Shown piece by piece: positions 18,001 to 24,000 of a stretch of DNA of 64,000 bases (position 1 is the first letter of the stretch; each line of letters begins with the position of its first letter). A program made the position numbers. Origin of the DNA: Rhizobium sp. Q54 (lineage in GTDB: Bacteria; Pseudomonadota; Alphaproteobacteria; Rickettsiales; UBA1997); NCBI GenBank assembly GCA_945871805.1, contig CAMBXE010000002.1:3632-67631 (forward strand), given 5' to 3'.

Positions 18001-21000
18001 AAAATGTCTAAGCAGATTCACATCATTGCCGGACCAAATGGCGCCGGAAAAACATCGCATGCGCGCGTTGCTCTGTTGCCAGATTTTTTAGGCAGTAATG
18101 AATTTGTGAATGCTGATGAAATAGCAAAAATTCTTTCTCCGGAAAATCCGGGAAAATCAGCGATTGAGGCGGGTCGCCTGATGTTGAAGAGAATGGATTT
18201 TCTGATTGAAGGCGGCAGAAGCTTCGCTCTTGAGACCACTCTGTCTGCGAAGATTTACGTTAATTTTATCAAAAAAGTTCAGAGCACCGGCTACAAGGTG
18301 AACCTGATTTTTCTGAAATTAGAAAGCGCAGAGCTTGCAAGAATAAGGGTCGGGGTTAGAGTAAATAAGGGCGGACACAATATTGAGCCGGAAGTAATCG
18401 AGCGCAGATTTCGCAGAGGTTTGGATAATTTAAAAATTTATCTCGATATTGTTGATACCGCCTCGATCTATGAGGCGAGCGGTCACGACCTAGTAGAAAT
18501 TGCCACAAAAAGTGAAGGCCAACTCACAATTCTTAACGAAAAATTCTGGAGGGAAATTTATGGGCAGTAACGAAATTCTAAAAAGAACCGAAGAAGGAAT
18601 GAAGGAAGGGCACAAGGTTTTGATCCGAGAATTAATTCGCGATCTCGAAGAAAAAGGTATTACTCCAGCTTGGTCGATAGATGGAAAAATAAGAAAATTG
18701 CGCGTCGCAAATGGCAGCGAGGTAAAAGATTTTGATCAGGAATTAAAACAGCACGGGCTAGATAAATCTGATTTTTGTTTACTTGAAGATGATGTCGCTA
18801 AAGCCGCCGTCTCGAGCATTATTTTAATTCACAAAAAATCCGCCAAAGTAAGAACCTACGAGGCCGGTAACGGTAGTCACTGGGTTTTGGACCTTCATCT
18901 CGATCTCAAAAATAAGCTCTTCGGCTAACATTTTCTTCACATGCAAAATAACAATAAAAACACGCTTTTAGCGGTAAGTCTTTCTGTCGCAATTTTACTA
19001 GGCTGGACTTGGCTTTATGAAAAGCCGCGCATCGAACAAAAAGAGGTGGCACAGCAAAAGGTTAGAGAGATTCAAGCTATTGAAAGCAAGGCTCCGACGC
19101 TAGCGAGTAAAAAAATTCAGGAAGCAATTGTGGCGACAAAAAGTCGCGACGAATCACTCGCTGAAAGCAAAAATCTACGCGTTAGAATTTCTAACGAATT
19201 GCTGCACGGATCGGTGTCGCTCAAGGGTGCGCGCTTCGACGATCTGACTCTCGCCAACTATTTCGAAACTACGGAGCATAAAAAAGAGGTCGCGCTTTTT
19301 GCGCCGGCAGAAAGTAAAGAAAGATATTTTGCTGACTTCGGCTGGATCAGCTCAAACGCTGGCCTAGAGCTGCCTAACCCCGATACAATTTGGAAGAGTG
19401 ATGACGCAAAATTAACGCCACAAAGTCCAGTTACGCTTTCGTGGAAAAGTAAGCAAGGCGTCGAGTTTTTTATCAAATTAACGCTCGACGAGAATTATAT
19501 GTTCTCGATTACACAGTCGGTTAAAAATAATTCCAAACAGGAATTAACCCTCGCCAGCTATGGTCGCATAAATCGCGCTTTGAACGATGTTCGGGACTCA
19601 AATTTCATTTTACACGAAGGCATGATCGCCGCTTTTGGTGGGGTATTGCAGGAAGTGAATTACAAAAAAATGCTCAAGGAAAAGAAGCTCGAATTTCAAG
19701 ATTCTGGAGAAAATGGAAGTTGGCTTGGTATCACTGATAAATATTGGCTAAGTGCCATGGTGCCAGACAAGGCGCTGGCTTACGGTGCTAGCTTTTCTCA
19801 TCGCATGAGTAACCAGCGCACATTTTTTGATTCAGAATTTATCGGCCAAGAATTTAAAATTGCGGCTGGGGATGAATTAAATTTCACTCACCATCTTTTT
19901 GCCGGAGCAAAGCACGTGAGACTTCTCGACCAATATGCAAAAGATTTTGATCTCAAACTTTTTGACCGCGCCATTGATTTTGGTTGGTTTTATTTCCTCA
20001 CCAAGCCGTTCTTTTTCATCATTGAATTTTTAAGTAAATTCTTAGGAAATTTCGGTTTAGCAATTTTGGCGATGACGGTTCTAGTCAAGCTGGCTTTGTT
20101 TCCGATGGCTAATAAATCTTATCTCGCAATTGCAAAAATTAAAAAATTGCAGCCAAAAATTGAGGCGCTGCGAGTAAAAAATAAAGGCGACAAACTTGCG
20201 ATTCATCGCGAGATAATGGAGCTCTACAAAAAGGAAAAAGTGAATCCGGCCTCGGGTTGCTTGCCGGTGTTAATTCAAATCCCGGTTTTCTTCGCGCTTT
20301 ACAAAGTTTTGTTCGTGACTCTCGACATGCGCCAGGCTTCGTTTTACGGCTGGATCCACGATCTCTCTGCGCCAGATCCAACTTCAGTTTTTAATCTATT
20401 TGGCTTGCTGCCTTTCGAAGTTTCGGGCCCACTCGTCATCGGCGTTTGGCCGATCTTGATGGGGGTTACGATGATCCTGCAACAGAAGCTCAGCCCCGCT
20501 TCGACAGATCCAACCCAAACAATGATTCTGCGCTGGATGCCTTACGTCCTAACTTTCGTTCTCGCTGCATTCCCTGCAGGCTTGGTGATTTATTGGACGT
20601 GGAGCAACGCGCTATCGATCTTGCAGCAGTGGGTGATTATGAGAAGAGTCAGCAAATAGATTTTATAGTTCGTCATTGCGAGCGTAGAGAAGCAATCCAT
20701 CTGCCAACACACTGGATCGCCACGCTTCGCTCGCGATGACACAACTTTCGTCATCGCGAGGAGCGTAGCGACGCGGCAATCCAGAAAGTAAACCAGTACA
20801 CACCATGTACCAAAAACAACCAGCCATCTACATTCTTGCCAGCAAGCGCAACGGAACTCTGTATGTCGGAGTTACTTCAAATTTAGCGCAAAGAATTTTT
20901 GAACATAGAAACCATCTCATCACGGGATTTACCTCGAAATATCACTGCGGCATTTTGGTCTATTACGAGATTTTTGAGGATATGACGAATGCGATTGCCA

Positions 21001-24000
21001 GAGAGAAGCAGATAAAGTCAGGCTCTAGAACTAAGAAGGTAAAGCTAATCGAGGATTTCAACTTGGATTGGCAGGATTTATACCAATCGATATTGTGACA
21101 AGATGGATCGCCACGCTGCGCTCGCGATGACGAGCGTCCCCCCCCGAGCGCTCTCTTTCTATCCGTCATTGCGAGGAGCGTAGCGACGCGGCAATCCAGA
21201 TATTTGGTGACTAATTACATTGCCAACGAGCGTCGTGGCGCTCCTTATTTTAATCGCAGAGCCAATCACATCATTAACAACATCGGCCGCACTTCTTTTG
21301 ATCTCGCAGGTTTCGTTCAGCTTTTCTTCTGCCGCATTCGGCACGGATCCGCTTGCATCATAGGCATGTGCGACTCCATTCATTTTAAGTGGATGAGTTG
21401 CGTTCTCGCCGATCACCATCGGATGTTTGCTCAGAGCAATAATTTGAGCGTGAGGATATTCCTCTTTCAGCTCGTCATGCAGGCATGACAGATGGGCATC
21501 GCCGAACATTATTATTTCGACATCGCAATTTTCTTTTTGGTGTGCGGCGGCGATTTGCGGTAAAATTATTTGCTGATGAACATCGCCCATCATCATCGGA
21601 TGAGAATATTGAGCGAGAGTGATGTCGAGAGCTTTGAGTCTGTCGAAATCAAATTTCGCGCCATCTTCCGTTAGGGCTTTGTTAATCAATTCAGATTGCT
21701 CCGGACGCGCTTCCGTTAATTTTTTTGGCGTCTGTCCAGCCAAGGTTCCAAGTGCAAAACTTTCTGCGATGTATTCTTTAATCCCGGCATCGACGACTCC
21801 GCCATTCTTGAGCTGTTGATGCATTATTTCTCCCGGAGTTTTTCCGGAACTTCTCCATTCCTCAATTTTGCTTTTGGTGAATTCATCTCTGCCGACGCAG
21901 ACGTGAGTAGTTTTTTCATCAACTTCGGCGCAGGTTTTTAAAACATCTTCGTCAAAAACATCTTCCCGATCGGTAAAATCTAATCTGCCAAATTTTTTAT
22001 TTTTTTGCTGATCGAACTCAGACAAAACGCGAACGCTTAACTCTTTATCCGCGCAGTCTTGAATGAGGTTGGCGATCAGTTTTGTGGTCGCAAAACTTAA
22101 GTGATCATCGCCAACCAAGATCACTAATTTTGTTCGCGATCCGGGCATGAGATTAGAGTGAATTAATCGCCTCAAAAGCGACGCTCAAATCCGCAATCAA
22201 ATCAGCAGGATTTTCTAAGCCGATTGATACGCGCACTAAGCCTTCCGAGACCCCGAGCTCTTCACGTAGATCAAAAGCAATTCCAGAATGTGTAGTCGAA
22301 GCGGGATGACAAACTAGAGATTCCGTTCCACCCAAACTCACCGCAGATTTAAAAATTTGTAACGCGTTGATGAAGGCGAAAGCCTCTTTTCTTCCGCCAT
22401 TTAACGTGAAAGCAAAAGTGCTGCCAAAGCCGGTGCATTGTTTGGCCATGGCCTCTTGATAAGATTTATTTTCGATAAATTTCGGGTGGAAAATTTTGGT
22501 TTGTGGGAAGGTTTTTTTCATCCAGTCAGCAACTTCTTCCGCTGATTTTGTCGCGCGCTCCATGCGCAAAAATAATGTTTCGAGTGAGCGACCAATCATC
22601 CAAGAAGAATGCGGATCTAAGTGCGATCCAAAAGCGCTGCGGGTGCGGCGAATTTTTTCCATTGGGGCTTTTTTACCAATCACTGCTCCAGCCACTAAAT
22701 CACTGTGTCCACCGACATATTTAGTGAGAGAGTAGCAAGATAAATCAATTCCGTGTTGCAGTGGTTTTTGAAAAACTGGCCCGAGCAAGGTGTTATCGCA
22801 GATGCTGATGGGTCTGTATCCATACTGACTTTCGAATTTATCGAGAGCGCTTTTTACCTTCGCAAAATCGACGAAAGCATTGGTTGGATTGCAAGGTGTC
22901 TCGATAAATAAAATACCGACGCGACCAATTCTGGCGCCTTTCGCCAAGCCTTCCCAGATTGATGCTTGATCGAGACCATTTCTGAACTCTACCGATTGAA
23001 TGCCCCATGTTTTTAAGGCGCCGCGAATAAGCGTTTCAGTGCCGCCGTAAAGTGGCGAAGAATGCACGATCACATCCGAAGGCTTAAGCAAAGCCAGGAA
23101 AGCTGTAGAGATCGCGGCCATGCCACTGGCGAAGATGTTACAACTTTCACCACCCTCTAAAAGGGCGATGCGATTTTCGATAATTTCTAAATTTGGGTGA
23201 TTGAAGCGACTATAAATCAAACCGCCAGAATAGCCTTCCGGCATCGTTTTACGACCCGATGTTACATCAAAAAATTCCGCACCTTCTTCGGCGGTTTTAA
23301 AGGCAAAAGTTGAGGTCAAAAAAACTGGAGGCTTCACCGCTCCTTCAGACAAGAAGGGATCGTAGCCAAAAGACATCATCTGTGTTTCTGGATGAATTTG
23401 ATGTTTATTGATGTGTGTTTTTTTGTAATTACTGCTCATGGTTATTTTGTTAATTTTAGGGATTCTTCTTGCGCAAAATTCATGCGTTTTTCTGCGGCAA
23501 TTTTAATCATTTCCACTTCTTGCGCACTGGCATTTTTAGCGACGTAAAGAGGCTTGCTATCGAAATAAAAACAGAGGGTTCCAAAAGGTAGAGGAATTTG
23601 AAATTTGTCCCAAGTGTTGAGTTGTTTGAAGCGCGAGCAAGAATAAGACATCGCCAAAATTCCAGCGCCGGAGATGCGCGCAATATTAACTATTTCTCCA
23701 TTAATTTTTTGATTAGGGCCGCGCGGACCGTCGGGGGTAAGGCCAAGTGAGTAGCCATTCTTCAGGCCATCAAAAATTTTTCTAAAACTTTTAAGATCAA
23801 TTCCCCGCGAAGATTTTCGTCCGCCTTGGGATGATCCGTAAATAGAAATCAGGCCAAGTCTTTCCATAATTCTGCCAACAAAATATCCGTCTCCATGACG
23901 TGAAGCGAGGGTCATGACATTATATTTTGAAAAAAGTTTTTTTGGTTCTCGAGTAGCAAAAGGAACCATCATCAAGCGATTATGCCAAAAAGTAATAATG

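What the first reader, a model, noticed from the sequence alone, without database searches (positions are those of the whole stretch)
20748..21132. GIY-YIG nuclease gene sits exactly between inverted arms of the dispersed PAL-C repeat: candidate autonomous parent of the repeat family
In ordinary PAL-C copies (14206-14284, 20669-20740, 57787-57873) the two ~30-nt arms are separated by a 12-20-nt loop. At this locus a left arm (20748-20785, tcgtcatcgcgag...gcaatccaga) and a right arm (21104-21132, tggatcgcc...ctcgcgatgacg) share 13/13 identical outer bases. They enclose a 318-nt 'loop' made almost entirely of a 97-codon GIY-YIG ORF, with 19 nt before the ATG and 5 nt after the stop. That is the geometry of an autonomous element relative to its MITE-like derivatives. 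It suggests the small GIY-YIG nuclease may mobilise or process PAL-C hairpins, much as RAYT enzymes relate to REP elements. Extra PAL-C arms on both sides (20669-20740 and 21164-21200) show this is a repeat hot spot, so the arrangement could be accidental.
Basis: inference. Interest (0 to 1): 0.65.

Follow-up and report, generated by a model that had tools for sequence, protein, structure and literature searches.

The report
Ssn nuclease gene flanked by its hairpin repeats
A tiny nuclease gene sits between two inverted copies of a hairpin repeat scattered through the genome; this matches the Ssn nuclease/hairpin-repeat system described in 2025, so it is a real but already known kind of element.

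Summary
A 97-codon GIY-YIG ORF (20805-21098) lies between inverted PAL-C arms (20748-20785 and 21101-21133).

It is not a hot-spot accident. Among 82 homologous genes from many phyla, 47 have the same arms on both sides and 22 on one side. Arm density is 0.7-0.9 per adjacent 100 nt, against about 0.02 beyond 500 nt.

Each "arm" is itself a complete hairpin site: a CGTC tag, an AT-initiated outer stem supported by covariation, a variable inner stem and a CCAG/CCAT tail. "PAL-C" is therefore an inverted dimer of such sites.

This is the SRM-ssn-SRM architecture of Chenal et al. 2025 (PMC11893778). In that work, single-domain GIY-YIG Ssn nucleases bind their flanking CGTC-tagged hairpin repeats as ssDNA and cut just 5' of them.

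- The window protein is 42-64% identical to 62 of 63 proteins encoded next to canonical Neisseria-type NTS repeats.
- It keeps the catalytic Tyr/Tyr/Glu at matching spacing.

Mobilisation is still unproven, but paralogues with sharp boundaries at the tags show the cassette duplicates as a unit.

Verdict: a new member, of a stem-variant subtype, of a known kind. Interest is modest.

The parts
20670..20702 (+). Hairpin site (short type: CGTC tag, ATTGC..GCAAT outer stem, CCAT tail). It is the left half of the gene-less PAL-C dimer just after yidC.
20712..20741 (-). Hairpin site (TGTC tag, ATCGC..GCGAT stem, CCAG tail). It is the right half of the gene-less dimer 20669-20740.
   Evidence: The dimer folds as ssDNA at -18 kcal/mol, z -3.6.
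20748..20785 (+). Left flanking arm of the cassette. It is a long-type site, CGTCATCGCGAGGAGCGTAGCGACGCGGCAATCCAGA, with the tag pointing outward.
20805..21098 (+). ssn-type gene: a 97-aa single-domain GIY-YIG nuclease with Y9, Y20, R30, H34, E67 and N86 conserved.
21101..21133 (-). Right flanking arm of the cassette. It is a short-type site, CGTCATCGCGAGCGCAGCGTGGCGATCCATCT on the minus strand, with the tag pointing outward.
21164..21200 (+). Lone long-type site, 97% identical to the left arm. It overlaps the last 14 codons of the 338-aa ORF on the minus strand.
14206..14284 (.). Gene-less PAL-C dimer: two short-type sites with tags outward. As ssDNA it forms a near-perfect hairpin (-49 kcal/mol, z -15.9).
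57787..57873 (.). Gene-less PAL-C dimer with the same long-left/short-right asymmetry as the gene-bearing cassette.

Best explanation
The locus is an SRM-ssn-SRM cassette: a gene for a ~100-aa single-domain GIY-YIG nuclease of the Ssn family, bracketed by two inverted copies of its own cognate DNA hairpin site.

Each PAL-C arm has this layout:
- a 5' CGTC/TGTC tag;
- a 5-bp outer stem beginning with AT (ATTGC/GCAAT, here also ATCGC/GCGAT);
- a GAG...CG(W)R internal loop;
- a short, variable inner stem-loop;
- a CCAG/CCAT tail.

The dispersed 'PAL-C' repeats are gene-less inverted dimers of the same site.

By homology with the characterised SsnA enzymes, I infer the following steps. When the DNA is single-stranded (lagging-strand template, incoming transforming or conjugating DNA, repair intermediates), the protein binds the folded site. 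It then hydrolyses the strand a few nucleotides 5' of the tag. With tags outward, that places the cuts near 20745 on the top strand and near 21136 on the bottom strand, just outside the cassette on each strand.

A GIY-YIG hydrolase forms no covalent intermediate. Any copying of the cassette or the dimers to new places must therefore be completed by host replication or recombination, not by a transposase-type strand transfer.

The cassette behaves as a discrete, horizontally spread unit. The gene-less dimers are most likely sites that the nuclease acts on in trans. The known host-level consequence in Neisseria is restriction of ssDNA carrying the sites.

What is shown here: the anatomy, the cross-phylum association, hairpin covariation, family membership by sequence, and unit-wise duplication. 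What is inferred: cleavage by this protein, the cut positions, and mobilisation.
For: (1) The protein is a GIY-YIG domain and nothing else. Across 82 homologues, Y9, Y20, R30, H34, E67 and N86 are 98-100% conserved. Y9/Y20/E67 correspond to the published catalytic Y6/Y17/E64 of the 94-aa N. meningitidis SsnA, shifted by the 3 extra N-terminal residues. A 94-aa NTS-adjacent ORF (L083) has Y6/Y17/E64 exactly.

(2) I scanned for the exact Neisseria NTS followed 45-75 nt later by Y.GVT codons. The window protein matches 62 of 63 extracted ORFs at 42-64% identity, E 4e-12 to 1e-41.

(3) Of 82 homologous genes, 47 have arms on both sides and 22 on one side within 250 nt. Arm density is 0.70 per 100 nt (upstream) and 0.92 (downstream) next to the gene, against about 0.02 beyond 500 nt. 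Tag-outward orientation predominates, 59:21 upstream and 67:33 downstream.

(4) Each arm is a hairpin. Outer-stem covariation gives ATTGC->GCAAT 139, ATCGC->GCGAT 62, ATTCC->GGAAT 19, ATTCT->AGAAT 12 and ATTAC->GTAAT 6, with few off-diagonal cases. The arms were chosen by their 5' motif only. Inner stems differ in sequence but stay complementary.

(5) The unit moves as a unit. Two Tisiphia copies lie 441 kb apart on one chromosome. They are 96.8% identical over 400 columns, running exactly from CGTCAT to ATGACGAGT, and their flanks are unrelated. Two Smithella copies are 85% identical over 392 nt, bounded by the tags. L040 and L062 share only positions -73 to about +90 relative to the gene.

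(6) Published biochemistry and genomics of the family support the model. Binding and cleavage are ssDNA-only and occur upstream of the repeat in four homologues. 71% of homologues have at least one flanking site and 42% have sites on both sides. 81% of repeat-rich genomes encode a homologue (PMC11893778).
Against: - The published degenerate SRM search string does not match any PAL-C arm. It matches two other repeat families in the window instead.
- Single PAL-C arms of this window fold no better than shuffles as ssDNA (z about 0). The canonical-type hairpins at 52530 and 1988 do fold well (z -2.8 and -4.4). The arm hairpin therefore rests on comparative evidence, and in vivo the two arms may pair with each other instead.
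- I could not compare the protein directly with N. meningitidis SsnA or CDD cd10448. No sequence or supplement was on hand.
- No empty site or insertion polymorphism was found. Two other assemblies of the same organism carry the identical arrangement.
- No target-site duplication is evident.
- 13 of 82 homologues show no arm of this type within 250 nt.
- Some homologues are plainly inherited vertically in kilobase-scale synteny, for example Alistipes L069/L071/L072/L076.
- Nothing here shows that the protein is expressed. The promoter scan was uninformative.
Confidence: 0.85

Rival explanations
1. Chance juxtaposition. The gene merely lies in a repeat hot spot, and the arms have no relation to it.
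For: Five arms crowd into 20669-21200, including a complete gene-less dimer and a lone arm. This shows local clustering independent of the gene.
Against: The same gene-arm arrangement recurs in dozens of unrelated genomes, with 30- to 40-fold local enrichment and a preferred orientation. Arm stem variants track protein similarity; none of 1000 permutations reached the observed difference. The association is also published (PMC11893778).
Confidence: 0.02
2. Homing rather than parenthood. The nuclease gene is a free-standing, homing-endonuclease-like cassette that invades pre-existing hairpin dimers. The nuclease breaks DNA at the sites, and repair from a gene-bearing copy then converts an empty dimer into a filled one. 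On this view the repeats are the target, not derivatives of the cassette.
For: - GIY-YIG enzymes are hydrolases typical of homing endonucleases, not transposases.
- The gene-less dimer 57787-57873 has the same long-left/short-right asymmetry as the filled one.
- In Tisiphia the neighbouring gene-less dimers use a different right-arm subtype from the cassette, so they are not its simple deletion products.
- No target-site duplications were seen.
Against: - The protein lacks any DNA-binding extension.
- It scores far below the group I intron endonuclease model (23.6 against 56.05 bits).
- Relatives do not cut dsDNA.
- The boundaries of the duplicated units lie at the outer tags, not inside a dimer. 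This fits movement of arm-gene-arm as a whole at least as well.
- This rival does not explain how the dimers themselves multiply.
Confidence: 0.15
3. A purely domesticated host system. The nuclease and its sites serve the cell, for example by restricting incoming ssDNA or tuning recombination as in N. meningitidis. Neither cassette nor dimers are currently mobile, and the flanking sites are relics or autoregulatory elements.
For: - The only in vivo role shown for the family is reduced transformation by site-bearing DNA.
- The locus is identical in three assemblies.
- Some homologues sit in conserved synteny.
Against: Cassettes with sharp boundaries occur at unrelated positions within a single genome, and homology between related genomes can be confined to the unit. 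The gene's distribution is patchy across phyla, at 47-71% identity, and unrelated to host phylogeny.
Confidence: 0.25
4. The arms act at the RNA level, as terminators, mRNA stabilisers or insulators like many REPs. Their link with the gene would then reflect transcript structure, with 5' and 3' UTRs pairing, rather than DNA recognition.
For: The dimer after yidC sits where a terminator would be. A T:G opposition in the 20669-20740 dimer would be a G-U pair in RNA. Di Nocera et al. 2013 argue that many CGTC REPs are transcribed.
Against: SsnA does not bind or cut RNA of the same sequence. The conserved unpaired tag and tail, and the strand-specific orientation around the gene, are features of protein recognition. 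No T-tract follows the arms, and none was called as a terminator.
Confidence: 0.08

Closest known systems
Ssn nucleases and Ssn-related motifs (NTS-ssnA-NTS), Chenal et al. 2025, Nat Commun 16:2388 (PMC11893778)
   Same: Both have a single-domain GIY-YIG protein of about 94-100 aa with the same catalytic Tyr/Tyr/Glu spacing. Identity to proteins encoded beside canonical NTS repeats is 42-64%. In both, the gene is flanked on both sides by inverted hairpin repeats with a CGTC tag, an AT-initiated stem and a CYRG tail. The same repeats are dispersed in the genome, often as clusters and dimers.
   Different: The arms here have a 5-bp outer stem, an internal loop and a variable inner stem, not one 8-9-bp stem. 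They escape the published degenerate SRM search string. The protein clade carries 'SGSRxxK' where NTS-type proteins carry 'KWNRAWK' after the catalytic REKQIK. Activity of this protein is untested.
CGTC-tagged REPs (families CGTC-1 to -4; dRS3 of Neisseria, RPE-4/RPE-6 of Rickettsia), Di Nocera et al. 2013 (PMC3733652)
   Same: Shared features are the unpaired CGTC/TGTC tag, a stem starting with AT, a CCA-type tail, predominantly inverted dimers, and occasional location inside genes.
   Different: That paper describes stems of 8-9 bp and loops of 4-5 nt. It concluded that CGTC repeats 'lack a dedicated transposase'. Here, and in the 2025 paper, a dedicated nuclease gene is found between them.
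REP/REPIN-RAYT (REPtrons) and IS200/IS605
   Same: In each case a small gene is bracketed by the hairpin repeats it recognises, and gene-less inverted doublets are dispersed in the genome. Recognition is of ssDNA hairpins, with cleavage beside them.
   Different: The enzyme class is unrelated: a hydrolytic GIY-YIG nuclease rather than an HUH/Y1 transposase that forms a covalent intermediate. The tag is GTAG, not CGTC. IS200/IS605 ends lie on one strand, whereas here the sites are inverted, so the cuts fall on opposite strands.
GIY-YIG homing endonucleases (I-TevI type) and UPF0213/YhbQ stand-alone GIY-YIG proteins
   Same: They share the catalytic fold. The nearest solved structure by sequence is 1YWL, UPF0213 protein EF2693 (E 0.0044).
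   Different: The window protein has no DNA-binding domain, no intron or phage context, and only a sub-threshold match to TIGR01453. Similarity to UPF0213 is weak, and that family is not reported with flanking hairpin repeats.

Membership tests
Ssn nuclease family (Chenal et al. 2025) | Single-domain GIY-YIG protein of about 94 aa with no extra DNA-binding domain | tested here: met
   The protein is 97 aa. Pfam GIY-YIG covers residues 7-78 and no other domain is found.
Ssn nuclease family (Chenal et al. 2025) | Catalytic residues equivalent to Y6, Y17 and E64 of N. meningitidis SsnA | tested here: met
   Y9, Y20 and E67 have the same spacing with a +3 N-terminal offset, and are 98-100% conserved in 82 homologues. 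NTS-adjacent L083 (94 aa) has Y6/Y17/E64.
Ssn nuclease family (Chenal et al. 2025) | Sequence homology to SsnA (the paper's criterion: E < 1e-10 to Nm SsnA; CDD cd10448) | tested here: inconclusive
   The Nm SsnA sequence and CDD were not on hand. A proxy test was positive: 62 of 63 ORFs lying 3-24 nt downstream of an exact Neisseria-type NTS match at E 4e-12 to 1e-41, with 42-64% identity.
Ssn nuclease family (Chenal et al. 2025) | Gene flanked by its hairpin repeats (SRM) in the 5' and 3' regions | tested here: met
   Arms lie at 20748-20785 (+) and 21101-21133 (-), with further sites on both sides. The same holds in 47 of 82 homologues.
Ssn nuclease family (Chenal et al. 2025) | Repeats match the published degenerate SRM search string HGTCWYN(0-2)YYVSBRHN(0-5)WNVSBRGN(0-2)RNCYNB. 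This is an operational search tool, not a definition. | tested here: not met
   The string gives 7 matches in the window, none of them PAL-C arms. PAL-C shares the tag (CGTC), AT start, AT end and CYRG tail, but has G at the position that must be Y.
Ssn nuclease family (Chenal et al. 2025) | Binds the repeat only as ssDNA and cuts a few nucleotides 5' of it; no activity on dsDNA or RNA | not testable with these tools
   This needs purified protein. It has been shown for four relatives.
CGTC-tagged REPs (Di Nocera et al. 2013) | Unpaired terminal CGTC (or TGTC/CCTC) tag, stem beginning with A-T pairs, and short CCA-type tail | tested here: met
   All window arms read YGTC-AT...AT-CCAG/CCAT.
CGTC-tagged REPs (Di Nocera et al. 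2013) | Stem of 8-9 bp with a loop of 4-5 nt | tested here: not met
   PAL-C arms have a 5-bp outer stem, an internal loop and a variable inner stem, and fold weakly alone. The window's other two families (52535, 1993) do meet the criterion.
REP-RAYT / IS200-IS605 | HUH/Y1 tyrosine transposase; GTAG-tagged REPs or same-strand subterminal hairpins | tested here: not met
   The encoded protein is GIY-YIG, the tag is CGTC, and the sites are inverted.
GIY-YIG homing endonucleases | Nuclease domain joined to a DNA-binding domain; intron-encoded or free-standing in phage; cuts dsDNA | tested here: not met
   The protein is 97 aa with one domain. TIGR01453 scores 23.6 bits against a cut-off of 56.05, over residues 7-38 only. 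The context is chromosomal, between yidC and a 338-aa ORF.

The most novel reading that the evidence does not exclude
The arm-gene-arm cassette may be a genuinely autonomous mobile element of a new mechanistic class. A hydrolytic GIY-YIG ssDNA nuclease would nick 5' of the outward-facing tags on opposite strands, and host replication or repair would complete the copying. The gene-less CGTC-tagged dimers (PAL-C, dRS3, some RPEs) would be its non-autonomous passengers. That would supply the 'missing transposase' of CGTC REPs. The clade-specific 'SGSRxxK' versus 'KWNRAWK' segment would be the specificity determinant matching each nuclease to its hairpin type. The 2025 authors raised the IS analogy but did not test it. 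The sharp-boundary paralogues found here are the first comparative support.
Probability: 0.35. Interest if true: 0.7.

Novelty: new member of a known kind. Interest (0 to 1): 0.3.

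Why it matters
As found, it mainly shows that reading sequence alone recovered a real protein-repeat partnership. It also adds a stem-variant subtype (ATTGCGAG type) that the published search pattern misses, so published counts of such repeats are probably underestimates.

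If the cassette's mobility and its action on the gene-less dimers were shown, two things would follow. It would explain how one of the two large superfamilies of bacterial palindromic repeats spreads. It would also add a transposase-free, nuclease-driven mode of mobility.

The natural pairing of nuclease clades with hairpin types is also directly useful for the proposed ssDNA-cutting tools.

Tried and rejected
- Exact-sequence look-up of the window protein found nothing on record. A look-up of YidC found the same locus in GCA_947503085.1 and ERZ27280191, but these carry the identical arrangement, so there is no empty site to compare.
- Literature searches with the repeat sequence itself, with COG2827, and with MITE or RAYT terms gave nothing relevant. 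The relevant papers surfaced only with a broader query. No follow-up on Ssn mobility was found.
- The Ssn paper's supplements and the Nm SsnA sequence are not held. I substituted proteins encoded beside exact NTS repeats in metagenomes.
- NCBIfam offers no family for the protein. The PDB holds no close relative, only 1YWL at E 0.0044.
- The published SRM pattern does not hit the arms.
- Folding single arms with DNA parameters gave no signal. The hairpin was established by covariation instead.
- The promoter/terminator scan and the composition profile were uninformative.
- Rfam found only a tRNA.
- I looked by eye for target-site duplications at cassette ends in several loci and saw none. Where flanks looked symmetric (L014, L025, L055), this was due to adjacent or nested arms.
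- I considered that gene-less dimers are internal-deletion derivatives of the cassette. The window's 57787 copy fits this, but the Tisiphia dimers do not.

Full report
**Observation**

The region reads as the first-stage reader described. A 97-codon ORF at 20805-21098 (+) is a Pfam GIY-YIG domain and nothing else (E 1.7e-16).

It is preceded by an arm at 20748-20785 and followed by an inverted arm at 21101-21133. The outer 13 nt pair perfectly.

A complete gene-less copy lies immediately upstream (20669-20740), and a lone arm lies downstream (21164-21200, 97% identical to the left arm). Further gene-less copies are at 14206-14284 and 57787-57873.

The 12-nt core occurs 8 times in the window, against 0.31 expected. 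This is the only GIY-YIG gene in the window.

**Is the juxtaposition accidental?**

No. A scan of one genome per species returned 269 relatives. The best 80 loci have 47-71% amino-acid identity. They come from Alpha- and Gammaproteobacteria, Babeliales, Omnitrophota, Patescibacteria, Melainabacteria, Bacteroidota, Dehalococcoidia, Clostridia, Armatimonadota, Nitrospirota and other groups.

- In 66 of the 80 loci the same core motif is present.
- Of 82 gene copies, 47 have an arm on both sides within 250 nt, 22 on one side, and 13 none.
- A detector that assumes only 'GTC + 5 nt ... reverse complement + C' finds 0.70 arms per 100 nt just upstream and 0.92 just downstream. Beyond 500 nt it finds about 0.02.
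- Tags point outward, 59:21 upstream and 67:33 downstream.

**What the arms are**

Aligning the flanking arms from all loci shows a common plan:
- a [C/T]GTC tag;
- a 5-bp outer stem starting with AT;
- GAG;
- an inner stem-loop whose sequence is free but whose halves stay complementary (for example CCGACT/AGTCGG, CCCCGC/GCGGGG, CCAGTT/AACTGG);
- CG(W)R;
- the outer stem's complement;
- a C(C/T) tail.

I picked arms by their 5' motif only and then asked which 3' pentamer follows. The table is almost diagonal: ATTGC->GCAAT 139, ATCGC->GCGAT 62, ATTCC->GGAAT 19, ATTCT->AGAAT 12, ATTAC->GTAAT 6.

Each arm is therefore a hairpin site in its own right, and 'PAL-C' is an inverted dimer of two sites with tags outward. 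The gene is not in the loop of one palindrome. It lies between two sites.

In this window the single arms have minimal inner stems. As ssDNA they fold no better than shuffles, whereas the dimers fold very strongly (14203-14287: -49 kcal/mol, z -15.9). The arm hairpin thus rests on comparative evidence. Arm-to-arm pairing may compete with it in vivo.

**It is a known system**

Chenal et al. 2025 (PMC11893778) described the Ssn family: single-domain GIY-YIG proteins of about 94 aa (CDD cd10448).

- The genes are flanked by 'Ssn-related motifs', hairpin repeats such as the Neisseria NTS, CGTCATTCCCGCGMAVGCGGGAATCYRG.
- SsnA from N. meningitidis and three other species binds its repeat only as ssDNA and cuts a few nucleotides upstream. 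It has no activity on dsDNA, RNA or the opposite strand.
- 71% of homologues have at least one flanking motif, and 42% have motifs on both sides.
- 81% of genomes with more than 200 motifs encode a homologue.
- In Neisseria the enzyme lowers transformation by DNA carrying the sites.
- Their Discussion notes that NTS-ssnA-NTS looks like an insertion sequence. It draws the IS200/IS605-REP analogy and proposes domestication. Mobility was not tested.

Earlier, Di Nocera et al. 2013 (PMC3733652) defined 'CGTC-tagged REPs': a CGTC tag, an AT-initiated stem, a CCA tail, and mostly inverted dimers. These include dRS3 and RPE-4/-6. They concluded that these repeats lack a dedicated transposase.

PAL-C arms share the tag, the AT start, the AT end and the CYRG tail with the NTS.

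**Membership**

I could not obtain the Nm SsnA sequence, so I used a proxy. A metagenome scan looked for the exact NTS followed 45-75 nt later by Y.GVT codons.

- The window protein matches 62 of the 63 at 42-64% identity, E 4e-12 to 1e-41.
- A 94-aa example (L083) has Y6, Y17 and E64, the residues mutated in the paper. The window protein has Y9, Y20 and E67, with identical spacing.
- These residues, with R30, H34 and N86, are 98-100% conserved in 82 homologues.
- No Ssn structure is in the PDB by sequence. The nearest is UPF0213 protein 1YWL, at E 0.0044.

One operational criterion fails. The paper's degenerate SRM string does not match PAL-C arms, which have G where Y is required. It does match two other repeat families in this window:
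- TGTCACCCCGCACTTGTTGCGGGGTCYAT at 1879, 1992, 2096, 25083 and 25326;
- the near-canonical CGTCATCCCCGCGCAGGCGGGGATCCAG at 52534 and 52594.

A looser detector adds copies at 577, 8888, 45119, 45174 and 48003.

PAL-C is therefore a stem-variant subtype. Its nuclease clade carries 'SGSRxxK' after the catalytic REKQIK, where NTS-type proteins carry 'KWNRAWK'. Arm variant classes track protein similarity: mean identity is 58% within classes and 53% between, and none of 1000 permutations reached this difference. This is partly confounded with taxonomy.

**Evidence on mobility**

- Two copies on the same Tisiphia chromosome, 441 kb apart, are 96.8% identical over 400 columns. The block begins exactly at CGTCAT and ends at ATGACGAGT, and the flanks are unrelated.
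- Two Smithella copies 1.7 kb apart are 85% identical over 392 nt, bounded by TGTCATTGCGAG and CTCGCAATGAC.
- Several pairs from related genomes share only the gene plus about 50-100 nt on each side, for example L040/L062 and L021/L023.
- Other homologues sit in kilobase-scale synteny and are vertically inherited: Alistipes, and some Dehalococcoidia.

So arm-gene-arm has been duplicated or transferred as a discrete unit ending at the tags. This matches where the family's enzymes cut.

I found no target-site duplication and no empty site. Two other assemblies of the source organism have the same arrangement, differing by Q29R, one synonymous change and a C-tract length.

Gene-less dimers are not uniformly deletion derivatives of the cassette. 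The 57787 copy has the same long-left/short-right asymmetry, but the Tisiphia dimers use a different right-arm subtype.

**Mechanism proposed**

Shown: the anatomy, the association, hairpin covariation, family membership by sequence, and unit-wise duplication.

Inferred from the family's biochemistry:
- The protein binds the folded arm on ssDNA and hydrolyses about 3 nt 5' of the tag.
- With tags outward, the cuts fall near 20745 on the top strand and near 21136 on the bottom strand.

Inferred further:
- A GIY-YIG hydrolase forms no covalent intermediate. Spread of the cassette and dimers would therefore need host replication or recombination, for example repair of a break in a lagging-strand template using an ectopic copy.
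- Cutting beside existing sites would favour the clustered arrays seen here and in L006, L014 and L028.

**Verdict**

It is a new member of a known kind, in an uncultured organism and with an unlisted stem subtype. It is not a new system.

The open and more interesting question is whether these cassettes are autonomous elements that drive the CGTC-tagged repeats. That question remains unproven.

Noticed in passing
window 1879-2124: A large composite palindrome. Hairpin sites of a second family (TGTCACCCCGCACTTGTTGCGGGGTCCAT) lie at 1879(-), 1992(+) and 2096(+). They are joined by four tandem 20-21-nt units on each side that look like tag-plus-half-stem fragments (CAACTTGTCACCCCACACTCC). The origin of these half-site arrays is unexplained.
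   Followed up: partly
window 25055-25354: A 97-nt unit repeated 2.5 times. Each unit contains a copy of the same second-family hairpin on the minus strand, progressively degraded. One intact plus-strand copy follows at 25326-25354.
   Followed up: partly
window 52534-52621 and 8888-8911: Near-canonical Neisseria-type sites (CGTCATCCCCGCGCAGGCGGGGATCCAG) form an inverted dimer, and there is one single copy. They match the published SRM pattern, but no nuclease gene lies near them in this window. The genome may hold further ssn paralogues elsewhere.
   Followed up: partly
window 45119-45197 and 48003-48026: A third variant (TGTCACCCCGTCGAATGACGGGGTCCAT) is present as an inverted pair and a single copy. 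A 20-nt tandem repeat of tag-like units lies at 45074-45129.
   Followed up: no
window 21159-22175 (-): A 338-aa ORF with no Pfam or NCBIfam match ends inside the lone hairpin site 21164-21200, so its last 14 residues (...ISGLPRRYAPRNDG) are encoded by the repeat. This is an in-frame repeat tail of the kind reported for Rickettsia palindromic elements. One other assembly calls it as 329 aa.
   Followed up: no
window 21138-21145: A C-tract between the right arm and the lone site is 8 nt here and 7 nt in the two other assemblies of the same organism (L081, L082). The nuclease differs from them by Q29R.
   Followed up: partly
L083-L162 versus L001-L080 (proteins): Nucleases next to NTS-type hairpins carry 'KWNRAWK' after the catalytic REKQIK, while those next to ATTGCGAG-type hairpins (including the window's KSGSRTKK) carry 'SGSRxxK'. 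This segment is a candidate specificity determinant.
   Followed up: partly
window about 18004-18570 (from L081 annotation): A gene with a Zeta-toxin domain (PF06414) and a 122-aa ORF lie between lon and yidC. This may be a toxin-antitoxin pair.
   Followed up: no
L031 and L050 (same Balneolales MAG): Two nuclease paralogues share homology only from -81 to +29 around the gene, yet show no ATTGCGAG-type arm. They may be flanked by yet another hairpin type.
   Followed up: no
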